A DNA stretch of 64,000 nucleotides, from the NCBI GenBank assembly GCA_048013815.1, contig CM106586.1, positions 16,058,001-16,122,000 on the forward strand. Direction: 5' to 3'. Position numbers and translations under genes: made by a program. Numbering within the stretch: the first letter of the stretch is position 1; each line of letters opens with the position of its first letter. This document shows, in pieces, positions 55,341-58,500 of this stretch. The notes under the pieces were generated by a model, which saw nothing but the letters and a program-made list of their open reading frames with translations, searched no databases and was not told the origin of the DNA. Source of the DNA: Setoptus koraiensis. Taxonomy: Eukaryota; Animalia; Arthropoda.

Positions 55341-55517
55341 ATGGATAGCATAGCCCCCGATTGTAAAAAGCTGAAATTAGATTATGATAGTTGCTTCAAT
55401 TCTTGGTTTTCGCAAAAATTTCTTAAGGGACACACAGAAAACGAGTGTGATTTATTATTTAAAAGCTATCAGGCCTGCATCAAGAAAGCTCTAAAGGACC
55501 ACAAGATAGAAATTTAA
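55341..55517 (+). CDS. TRIAP1: TRIAP1/Mdm35 twin CX9C mitochondrial lipid-transfer partner (58 aa; below the ORF-track cutoff)
   Basis: [59 protein letters not shown]8-x9-C18 and C36-x9-C46; YDxCFNxWFxxKFLKG signature; strong Kozak aacATGg. Confidence 0.93.
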
Positions 55518-58500
55518 TGAGTCGAATCAGTTATCAACAAATTATTAATTTAGACGAAGCAGAATCTAATCAAACGTCAAACAGGAGGAGACACAGAGCC
55601 CGCCGCAATACGCCATCATTTGTCTGTGGGTTTTGGCTTCATTTATTGCGCTCAGTCACTTGCTTTATATTATATGTACCAAACAAAATGGGCCAAATAT
55701 TTTCTAGAAGAAGGAGACAATTAAAATCGCGCATAATACACATTGGCGACAATGGTAAACATCATCATGATAAGAATTCTACCAAATTGACAGCAGTCTC
55801 CTCCACTATATCCACGTCCTCTTCAACATCATCCTCGTCCTCATCAACTTCAACAAGCCAACATCGGCAACTCAACTACTACAACAGCCGATGCAATCAT
55901 CATCATGGGGGCTCCTCATGTAGCAAAAATGATCGCTATCCCCCTAATATCATTCGCAATCAAAAATACAATATTATATCATTCTTACCAATAGTGTTGT
56001 TCAATCAATTTAAATTCTTCCTTAATTTGTACACATTATTAATGGCCTGTTCACAATTTATACCTGAACTATTGATTGGATATTTCTACACTTATTGGGC
56101 ACCATTAAGTTTCGTATTAGCTGTGTCAGTTATAAGAGAGGCTGTTGACGATTTGCTCCGATACAATCGTGACAAGGCAGTCAATTCTCAATTGTACCAG
56201 AAGCTCACCTCAAATGGACCAACTGTCATACCGAGCTCCAAAATTCAAGTTTCCGACCTTATTATGGTCGAAAAAGACCAACGTGTGCCTGCAGACATGA
56301 TACTTCTTAGGACAACAGAAAAGAATGGATCTTGTTTTGTTCGCACAGATCAGCTTGATGGTGAAACAGATTGGAAGCTTAGACTAGCCATATCAACAAC
56401 ACAACAGGTCGAGTCTTGTGACGAATTTTTCAATCTAGATGCCACAATCTATGCCGAGGAACCTCAAAGGGATATCCATAGCTTTACTGGAAAATTTGTT
56501 TCTGGCAAGACAAACTCTGAAGTTGCACTCTCCATTGAAAATGCACTTTGGGCCAACACGGTTATAGCTTCTGGCCAAGCTGTTGGAGTAGTTATCTATA
56601 CTGGTAGTGAAACAAGAAGTGTCATGAACAATCTCGAGGCTAGAAGCAAAGTGGGCTCATTGGATCTTGAAGTCAACGACATCACAAAGATATTGTTCGC
56701 AGCAGTCGTTGTGTTAGCCTTTGCTATGGTCTTCTTACAAGACTTTCACGGAGCATGGTATCGTTATTGGTTTAGATTTGTATTATTATTCTCATACATT
56801 ATCCCGATAAGCCTTAGAGTTAATTTAGAAATGAGTCGAGTTGTTTACTCATATATGATCCAACGTGATATGGAAATTCCCGGTACTGTAGTGAGGACCA
56901 CAACTATTCATGAAGATCTTGGTAGAGTCGCGTACGTCTTGACAGATAAGACAGGAACTCTTACACGTAACGAAATGGTATTCAAAAGAATACATTTTGG
57001 CAAAGTCTCATACACACCAGAGTATTTCGACGAGGTCGCCGCTATCCTCAGAACAGCATTCGCTCCCCCTTCATCCAAAGCAGGCACATCAAATAATGTT
57101 GGTCACAAAAGAGATGGGAGCACTGCCAGTGTAGCCAGTTTCATGGAAAGACGTCAGTTTCAACCGAGACATTTGCGAATTGACTCCTATGAAATCGATC
57201 GAGATACGATCTATAGACTACACTCTGCCGTCCTAGCTTTAGCCTTATGCCACAATGTCACTCCATCCTATGAAAATGAGTTTGACAACATTAGTAATTC
57301 ACAAAACGGCAACAATGAAAACGCCCCAGATGGTCAAGCAATCCCACTAAAACCAAGAGGAATGACTTATCAAGCCGCAAGTCCGGATGAAGTCGCTCTT
57401 GTTCAATGGACCGAACGAGTTGGCGTAGCTTTAATTGATCGCGACATAAGTCATATGAAACTAAGGAACCCTCACGGTCAGAATATCAAGTTTGACATCT
57501 TACAAGTGTTTCCTTTCTCATCCGAGACAAAAAGGATGGGTATCATCGTCAAGGATACACAAACAAATGATATTTTGTTCTTGTTGAAAGGTGCTGATGC
57601 TGTAATGTCTCATATAATTCAGTACAGTGATTGGCTGCAAGAGCAATGTGATAACATGGCTAGATCAGGATTGAGAACTCTTGTGGTTGCTCGTAAGGTT
57701 CTATCTCATGATCAATACAATGATTTTGAATCAAGATATACTCAAGCTAAACTCAACTTAACCAACAGACAAGCGAGAATGAGTGAAGTCATCGCAACTT
57801 TAGAAAAAGATATGGAACTTTTGTGTCTGACAGGCGTCGAAGATCGTTTGCAAGAAGGTGTTCCTACTACACTGAAGGGACTTCAAGATGCTGGTATTCG
57901 CATTTGGATGTTGACTGGAGATAAGATGGAAACTGCAATCAATGTGGCTAAGTCTTCGCAACTTGTGAAAAAGATGCAAGAAGTATATCAATTCAAACCC
58001 ATCAAGAATCGTGTCGAAGCTCATTTAGAACTCAATAACTTTCACCGTAAGAGCGACTGCCCTCTAATTATAGCCGGCGAGGATCTCGAACTATGTCTGA
58101 AGTTTTATCCATGTGAATTCATGGAACTTGCGTGCCAGTGCTCTGCTGTAGTGTGCTGCAGGTGTACGCCAACTCAAAAAGCTGAAGTTGTGAAGCTTAT
58201 TCAGAACAGATCAGGCAAAAGGACTTTGGCTATCGGAGACGGAGGTAACGATGTTTCTATGATACAAACAGCCGATGTTGGGGTAGGAATATGGGGCAAA
58301 GAAGGCCAGCAAGCATCTCTTGCAGCGGACTTTTCTATAATGCAGTTCAGCTATATCTACCGATTGATCCTATTGCACGGTCGTTATAGCTACAAACGGT
58401 CAGCAGCCTTAAGTCAGTTCATTATACACCGTGGTCTCATTATCTCAACAATGCAAGCTATCTTCTCATCAGTTTTCAATTTTGCATCAGTGTCATTGTA

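What the first reader, a model, noticed from the sequence alone, without database searches (positions are those of the whole stretch)
55341..55700. Stop-start (TAATG) coupling of two lipid-transport genes: TRIAP1 stop overlaps the ATP9 start
Seen: TRIAP1 ends ...GAA ATT TAA (55515-55517) and ATP9 begins ATG at 55517, in the -1 frame; TRIAP1 has a strong Kozak context and ATP9 a weak one (tttaATGa); no room for a polyA site or promoter between them. Known: UAAUG overlaps drive termination-reinitiation in influenza B M1/BM2 and the SART1 retrotransposon and are rare in animal nuclear genes; no TURBS-type UGGGA is present here. Inference: a bicistronic mRNA coupling a mitochondrial phosphatidic-acid transfer cofactor to a Golgi/endosomal flippase. 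Alternatives: an ATP9 promoter inside TRIAP1, use of the downstream Met (NKMGQ), or a 1-nt assembly error hiding a fusion.
Basis: partly seen in the sequence, partly recalled or inferred. Interest (0 to 1): 0.85.

Follow-up and report, generated by a model that had tools for sequence, protein, structure and literature searches.

The report
Mite genes share one stop-start base
In a tiny plant-feeding mite, the stop codon of a small mitochondrial gene (TRIAP1) overlaps the first in-frame start codon of a large membrane flippase gene (ATP9) by one base; the two are likely read from one messenger RNA by ribosomes that would restart after the first gene, but no RNA data yet show this.

Summary
The overlap is real. 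TRIAP1 (55341-55517, 58 aa) ends in TAA and the intronless ATP9 frame (55517-59023) opens with the overlapping ATG. It is not an assembly error: contigs of six runs bridge it without an indel, three from a lineage about 4-5% diverged. The organism is an eriophyoid mite grouping with Fragariocoptes setiger, whose gene model fuses TRIAP1 to ATP9 and fits the same overlap (p about 0.03-0.045). Eriophyidae lack the link (0 of 3 loci). TRIAP1 lost only its disordered tail; ATP9 codons 1-57 resemble the ancestral N-terminus, so the weak-context first ATG is probably used. Best reading (0.45): one dicistronic mRNA, with ATP9 made by reinitiation at the overlap, and at Met58 as fall-back. Main rival (0.30): a separate ATP9 mRNA by internal start or splicing, the overlap merely frozen by compaction. 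No TURBS motif, no stable structure and no RNA evidence were found. Small twin-CX9C genes upstream on dicistronic mRNAs are known in Drosophila. A lipid-transport rationale is unsupported. The scan's earlier notes hold nothing on this pair.

The parts
55341..55517 (+). TRIAP1/Mdm35 ORF, 58 aa, twin CX9C; ends where the folded core of the human protein ends
   Evidence: 6 of 6 listed substitutions in the diverged lineage are synonymous; PMC4515122 passages
55515..55519 (+). TAATG: TRIAP1 stop overlapping ATP9 Met1 (-1 frame); TGA follows in the TRIAP1 frame
   Evidence: bridged without indel in six runs
55517..59023 (+). ATP9 (class II P4-ATPase, ATP9A/B-Neo1 type), one uninterrupted ORF of 1168 aa
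55517..55687 (+). ATP9 codons 1-57: basic patch plus Cys-containing hydrophobic stretch, likely the ancestral N-terminal region; codons 28-32 vary fast
   Evidence: 10.8 bits against a profile of 66 non-eriophyoid N-termini, 0 of 500 shuffles as high; 34% identity over 38 aa to F. setiger; variation
55688..55690 (+). Met58 in strong context (aaaATGg), aligned with a Met kept in most acariform mite ATP9 proteins; likely second start
55384..55386 (+). Out-of-frame AUG inside TRIAP1 with A at -3 (36-codon ORF ending 55494); a barrier to leaky scanning
   Evidence: no change listed
55485..55596 (+). 112 nt around the junction with no listed substitution in the diverged lineage; possible cis-element (weak)
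   Evidence: table cut at 40 of 71 rows; P about 0.01-0.05, window partly chosen after the fact
55720..55725 (+). ATTAAA inside ATP9 coding DNA; possible weak poly(A) signal for a short TRIAP1 mRNA
   Evidence: 1 seen, 1.4 expected by chance
59042..59047 (+). AATAAA 19 nt after the ATP9 stop; first canonical signal after TRIAP1
54083..54610 (+). Candidate shared promoter and first exon (inferred): four TGTGAG copies, TATAAA at 54524, donor-like GTAGGT at 54602
   Evidence: pattern matches only; a like cluster lies about 1 kb before the next gene

Best explanation
TRIAP1's stop overlaps ATP9's first in-frame ATG, and the two genes are likely transcribed from one upstream promoter as a dicistronic mRNA on which some ribosomes would restart on ATP9 after finishing TRIAP1. 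Shown: the overlap, both intact ORFs, purifying selection on TRIAP1, no indel in six runs. Inferred: in the ancestor of this mite and Fragariocoptes, TRIAP1 came to sit in ATP9's leader, losing its disordered tail and the spacer; TRIAP1 is made by normal scanning from a strong AUG; a minority of post-termination ribosomes step back one base and start the long ATP9 form at Met1, where context matters little; others resume scanning and start at Met58. The output would be much TRIAP1 and little ATP9. No TURBS or SART1-type structure is apparent, so efficiency would rest on the short first ORF (58 codons) or an unknown element near the junction.
For: Codons 1-57 look coding: frame open for 76 codons before Met58 (chance 0.004; 0.015 for 57), homology to ATP9B-type N-termini, no indel in diverged runs, same Met1 peptide in allele P0001. 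Met1 is the only in-frame AUG there and has neither a purine at -3 nor G at +4, unlike 11 of 11 other usable ORF starts (2 of 13 rows dropped for a strand slip). Two AUGs with A at -3 lie upstream, against leaky scanning (PMC11892635 passages). The splice-acceptor candidate next to Met1 (55509) lacks a pyrimidine tract and branch motif, unlike introns seen in the window. F. setiger model P0002 carries TRIAP1 then ATP9; the seven residues to its first Met allow a stop overlapping that ATG and fit best in the register of TRIAP1's last five residues (58 of 1874 and 46 of 1013 null cases as good). Precedent: twin-CX9C upstream ORFs in Drosophila (PMC2276209); stop-to-start distances of -34 to 319 nt in exclusively polycistronic loci (PMC4528330).
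Against: No RNA evidence at all. No UGGGA and no fold better than shuffles in 5 of 5 segments (z -0.61 to +1.17); reinitiation after longer ORFs usually needs such elements (PMC10275272 section 9). An overlap leaves no spacer in which indels can occur, so its conservation does not prove coupling. Codons 27-46 carry 6 amino-acid changes against 2 silent codons in X9, and 6 of 14 differences from allele P0001 fall in residues 28-46, so the extension is weakly constrained. In Drosophila only 45 of 159 dicistronic loci are exclusively dicistronic. The F. setiger geometry is inferred from an ab initio protein model, not from its DNA. The genes are unlinked in Eriophyidae.
Confidence: 0.45

Rival explanations
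1. ATP9 has its own monocistronic mRNA, from a start site inside TRIAP1 or by splicing an upstream exon to an acceptor inside or after TRIAP1, and TRIAP1 may end at a weak signal inside ATP9. The overlap is a frozen product of genome compaction with no translational role.
For: Acceptor candidates at 55472 (would keep Met1) and 55655 (would give Met58; the variant at 55653 keeps YAG) and donor-like sites upstream; ATTAAA at 55720; 4 of 12 other genes have neither hexamer within 400 nt of the stop, so the lack of AATAAA says little. Most Drosophila dicistronic loci have a monocistronic isoform. 369 annotated gene pairs overlap in another eriophyoid genome (bioRxiv 10.64898/2026.08.24.746826, passage). 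The invariant 112 nt could be a promoter or splicing element.
Against: No CTRAY branch motif before these acceptors; a promoter would have to sit in 177 nt of protein-coding DNA; Met1's context is the poorest of the starts examined.
Confidence: 0.3
2. Met1 is idle. ATP9 starts only at Met58, reached by ordinary rescanning after the TRIAP1 upstream ORF or on a spliced mRNA; TAATG is a coincidence in AT-rich DNA.
For: Met58 has a strong context and is kept across acariform mites; several eriophyoid records start there; chance of the pentamer is about 3.5%; the extension evolves fast.
Against: Open frame, homology and lack of indels in codons 1-57; F. setiger keeps an open, alignable extension; Eriophyidae keep a shorter Cys-bearing extension with its own Met.
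Confidence: 0.13
3. Dicistronic mRNA, but ATP9 is reached by leaky scanning past the TRIAP1 AUG, as in green algal bicistrons.
For: Established route for eukaryotic bicistrons (PMC11892635); TRIAP1 holds only one internal AUG.
Against: TRIAP1's AUG is in strong context and the internal AUG has A at -3 and could be removed by a silent change, yet persists.
Confidence: 0.1
4. A TRIAP1-ATP9 fusion protein, hidden by an assembly error or made by -1 frameshifting.
For: The F. setiger model is fused; an AAATTTA heptamer lies at the junction.
Against: No indel in six runs; the heptamer is phased for the ATP9 frame, not the TRIAP1 frame; the F. setiger model is ab initio and drops TRIAP1's fourth cysteine; an intermembrane-space protein fused to a secretory-pathway membrane protein is implausible (established knowledge).
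Confidence: 0.02

Closest known systems
Drosophila conserved-peptide uORFs with twin CX9C motifs (CG9865 uORF1 and 3, CG30290, CG9288; PMC2276209) and FlyBase dicistronic loci (PMC4528330)
   Same: A small, conserved mitochondrial intermembrane-space ORF directly upstream of an unrelated long ORF on the same strand; spacing within the known range.
   Different: TRIAP1/Mdm35 and ATP9 were not found among these (term searches; one FlyBase supplementary file could not be searched); exact one-base stop-start overlap; shared mRNA not shown here.
SART1 retrotransposon UAAUG coupling (cited in PMC10275272, PMC5972666)
   Same: Same pentamer, in an arthropod nucleus, without a TURBS.
   Different: Two ordinary cellular genes; first ORF short; no stable downstream fold found.
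TURBS-dependent termination-reinitiation (caliciviruses, influenza B M1/BM2)
   Same: Stop and start share bases; poor context at the second AUG is tolerated.
   Different: No UGGGA, no structured upstream element; cellular.
Human cellular coupled ORFs (Gould et al. 2014, as described in PMC5972666 and PMC10275272)
   Same: TURBS-free coupling on cellular mRNAs.
   Different: There the second ORFs have no known role; here both are ancient conserved proteins and the long one is downstream.

Membership tests
TRIAP1/Mdm35 (PF05254) | Twin CX9C hairpin with conserved aromatic stripe | tested here: met
   Pfam 77.6 bits vs cut-off 27; alignment to human TRIAP1 over residues 1-57
ATP9/Neo1 class II P4-ATPase | P4-ATPase domains, nearest solved relatives ATP9A and Neo1 | tested here: met
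Dicistronic locus with conserved-peptide upstream ORF | Upstream ORF under purifying selection | tested here: met
   6 of 6 listed changes synonymous
Dicistronic locus with conserved-peptide upstream ORF | Pairing kept in another species | tested here: met
   F. setiger model P0002; not in Eriophyidae
Dicistronic locus with conserved-peptide upstream ORF | Both ORFs on one mature mRNA | not testable with these tools
   No holder on record as RNA; only contigs laid
TURBS-dependent termination-reinitiation | Overlapping or adjacent stop and start | tested here: met
TURBS-dependent termination-reinitiation | 18S-complementary motif upstream of the stop (UGGGA; motif recalled and from the finding) | tested here: not met
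   No TGGGA; one AGGGA at 55426, inside the conserved LKG codons. The mite 18S loop was not checked.
TURBS-dependent termination-reinitiation | Structured RNA element upstream | tested here: not met
   55400-55520 folds worse than shuffles, z +1.13
SART1-type coupling | RNA structure downstream of UAAUG | tested here: inconclusive
   z +1.17, +0.13 and -0.61 for three downstream segments; a hairpin near 55594-55637 forms but is no better than shuffles and is hit by substitutions
Any coupled termination-reinitiation | Second ORF's output depends on termination near its AUG | not testable with these tools
   needs a reporter

The most novel reading that the evidence does not exclude
A lineage of eriophyoid mites makes a conserved flippase by virus-like coupled termination-reinitiation at a UAAUG shared with a housekeeping mitochondrial gene, using no TURBS and no stable structure, and has kept this since the split from Fragariocoptes; streamlined mite genomes may use such operon-like junctions more widely.
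Probability: 0.25. Interest if true: 0.75.

Novelty: new variant of a known kind. Interest (0 to 1): 0.45.

Why it matters
Coupled termination-reinitiation is well documented in viruses and a retrotransposon, but cellular cases with two conserved, functional proteins are scarce, and a review notes that TURBS-like elements in cellular mRNAs are still conjecture (PMC10275272). A natural 177-nt first ORF joined to a long conserved gene gives a compact reporter substrate for asking whether animal ribosomes couple without a tether. It would also show that eriophyoid genome shrinkage reached the point of deleting whole intergenic and untranslated regions. If ATP9 has its own mRNA, the case is an ordinary overlap in a compact genome.

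Tried and rejected
No whole genome is held, so other TAATG junctions and a second TRIAP1 copy could not be sought genome-wide. No RNA holder listed. X15 (RNA only by guess) gave one 216-nt contig at depth 2.4 over TRIAP1 (55297-55512) and none over the rest; X7 (kind unknown) gave three short pieces, none at the junction: neither says anything about transcripts. Word-based search for TRIAP1 relatives found none; the HMMER search found 568, none recognisably from a mite among the 9 looked up, so TRIAP1 length in Eriophyidae is unknown. Search for shorter ATP9 N-terminal fragments gave 64 hits; the 10 inspected held no window-like extension. Rfam: only 3 weak matches far below cut-off in 52000-60500. 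The sigma-70 scan does not apply to a eukaryote and was ignored. Slippery heptamers are in the wrong phase or beyond the stop. Leader composition did not separate TRIAP1 from other genes. The careful tree did not finish; the quick tree is used. Literature: 0 papers hold ATP9, TRIAP1 and mite together; searches listed no report of this pair (listings only); the Aculops genome paper has no 'polycistron', 'bicistron', 'dicistron' or 'trans-splic'. Earlier scan notes: none on this pair; one unrelated note from the same genome was listed and not used.

Full report
Observation. The window holds a 58-codon ORF at 55341-55517 and a 1168-codon ORF at 55517-59023 on the + strand that share one base, TAATG. 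The first is TRIAP1/Mdm35 (PF05254, E 8e-22; human TRIAP1 structure E 3e-15). The second is an intronless ATP9-type P4-ATPase. Its nearest named relatives are from Fragariocoptes setiger (89% over 88% of the query) and Aceria tosichella (82%). A quick maximum-likelihood tree of 34 proteins groups the window with F. setiger (SH-aLRT 95), sister to 19 Eriophyidae-like rows (the careful search did not finish). The organism is thus an eriophyoid mite, a group with tiny, intron-poor genomes (PMC7738191, passages).

Not an assembly error. Of 24 listed runs I laid 8. X2 spans 53500-56500 in one contig with 4 other letters and no gap (it may be this DNA's source). X3 and X4, apparently one data set, bridge the junction with 8 other letters and one 13-nt deletion far upstream. 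X9, X10 and X11 come from a lineage about 4-5% diverged; their gap totals are fully explained by indels at or before 55327, so none falls in either ORF up to 56100. X7 and X15 do not bridge the junction. In X9 the six listed changes in TRIAP1 are all silent. No change is listed between 55485 and 55596, but the table shows 40 of 71 rows; the shown rows appear to be all X9 rows up to 55653, which is my inference. The chance of so long a blank is 0.01-0.05, with limits partly chosen after the fact.

How surprising is the pentamer? Modestly. 10.4% of TAA/TGA triplets in the window are followed by TG; with frame, about 3.5% per close pair. The tight packing itself is the unusual thing. TRIAP1 stops 12 residues after its fourth cysteine, against a median of 32.5 among 76 homologues alignable there, 2 of which are as short (149 of 150 hits had the motif). 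The missing part equals the 18 C-terminal residues with no density in the human structure (PMC4515122, passages), so the folded core is whole.

Is Met1 used? The ATP9 frame is open for 76 codons before Met58, with Met1 the only AUG. Residues 1-57 score 10.8 bits against a profile from 66 of 101 non-eriophyoid ATP9 N-termini; 0 of 500 shuffles reach this (best 10.2), and the other two frames score below zero. They align with F. setiger at 34% over 38 residues. Against this, codons 28-32 change fast between alleles, and Met58 has a strong context and is kept in most acariform mites, often as MGxxxS/T/C (the myristoylation reading of that motif is recalled). Both starts are probably used.

Relatives. 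The F. setiger model P0002 begins with 42 residues of TRIAP1 (62% identical), then switches to ATP9. It is an ab initio SNAP/MAKER model (PMC8907322, main-text passages and one supplementary file searched), so the fusion is best read as a predictor bridging two abutting genes. The seven residues ending at its first Met can be back-translated so that a stop overlaps that ATG, and the shifted frame fits TRIAP1's last five residues better than 8 other registers; 58 of 1874 and 46 of 1013 null cases do as well. In three Eriophyidae loci (two species) with 5 kb upstream of ATP9 there is no TRIAP1, nor in any of the 70 loci fetched (best E 0.5; many have short flanks); the same search finds the window gene with the F. 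setiger query at E 8e-18. The pairing is therefore lineage-limited and not required.

Mechanism. Four routes could give ATP9. Fusion or frameshift is rejected. Leaky scanning must pass two AUGs with A at -3 (55341, 55384), the reverse of algal bicistrons (PMC11892635, passages). A separate ATP9 mRNA is possible: acceptor-like sites at 55472 and 55655, donor-like sites at 54084-54789 and an ATTAAA at 55720 exist, though none of the acceptors has the branch motif seen in three introns read from the window. Reinitiation fits Met1's context, which lacks both a -3 purine and +4 G, unlike all 11 other usable starts (these are first ATGs of ORFs, not verified starts). But no UGGGA and no stable fold were found, and such elements are usually needed after long ORFs (PMC10275272, section 9 and passages; PMC5972666, passages). 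At 58 codons TRIAP1 lies between a typical short uORF and a long ORF. An overlap also cannot drift by spacer indels, so its persistence is expected under any route. I put 0.45 on dicistronic reinitiation using Met1, 0.30 on a separate ATP9 mRNA, 0.13 on Met58 only, 0.10 on leaky scanning and 0.02 on fusion.

Known kinds. Drosophila has 159 dicistronic pairs, 45 exclusively so, with stop-to-start distances from -34 to 319 nt (PMC4528330, passages; its supplementary file 1 could not be searched and might list like cases). Twin-CX9C ORFs recur as conserved upstream ORFs there (PMC2276209, passages and supplement hits). This locus works most like those, with the added UAAUG geometry of SART1 and influenza B. 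It is not a member of the TURBS class. I found no report of the pair. Supplements of the bioRxiv eriophyoid genome paper (passages) are closed and might list overlapping pairs.

Verdict. A real, lineage-conserved one-base overlap of two conserved genes, likely dicistronic, mechanism unproven; new variant of a known kind; interest 0.45.

Noticed in passing
window 53825, 54257-54264, 55691-55720 (runs X3, X4): Contigs fold back onto the opposite strand at short shared words, as whole-genome amplification chimeras do; a true inversion allele is not excluded.
   Followed up: no
window 55597-55611: Seven substitutions in 15 nt of ATP9 codons 27-32; at least four different allele peptides among the window, P0001, X9/X10 and X11, with no indel.
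   Followed up: partly
window 54083-54490 and 60115-60297: Clusters of four YTGTGAG-type words about 1 kb before TRIAP1 and before the SSDP-like ORF at 61298; possible promoter element, modest statistics.
   Followed up: partly
window 55688-55705: Internal Met-Gly of ATP9 kept across acariform mites, resembling an N-myristoylation site (motif recalled); suggests an old short isoform.
   Followed up: partly
window 11629-12525 (- strand): 298-aa ORF made largely of EAEP repeats, with a 231-aa Ser/Ala/Gly repeat ORF on the opposite strand.
   Followed up: no
window 59700-59940: Imperfect inverted repeats after ATP9 give three weak microRNA-family matches far below cut-off.
   Followed up: no
protein P0130: A 79-aa TRIAP1 homologue from a chytrid fungus carries the name of GPI1, hinting at a close or shared locus there.
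   Followed up: no
window 10127-10537 (- strand): Roadblock-like gene with an intron right after the ATG that stays in frame without a stop, so the ORF reads through it.
   Followed up: partly
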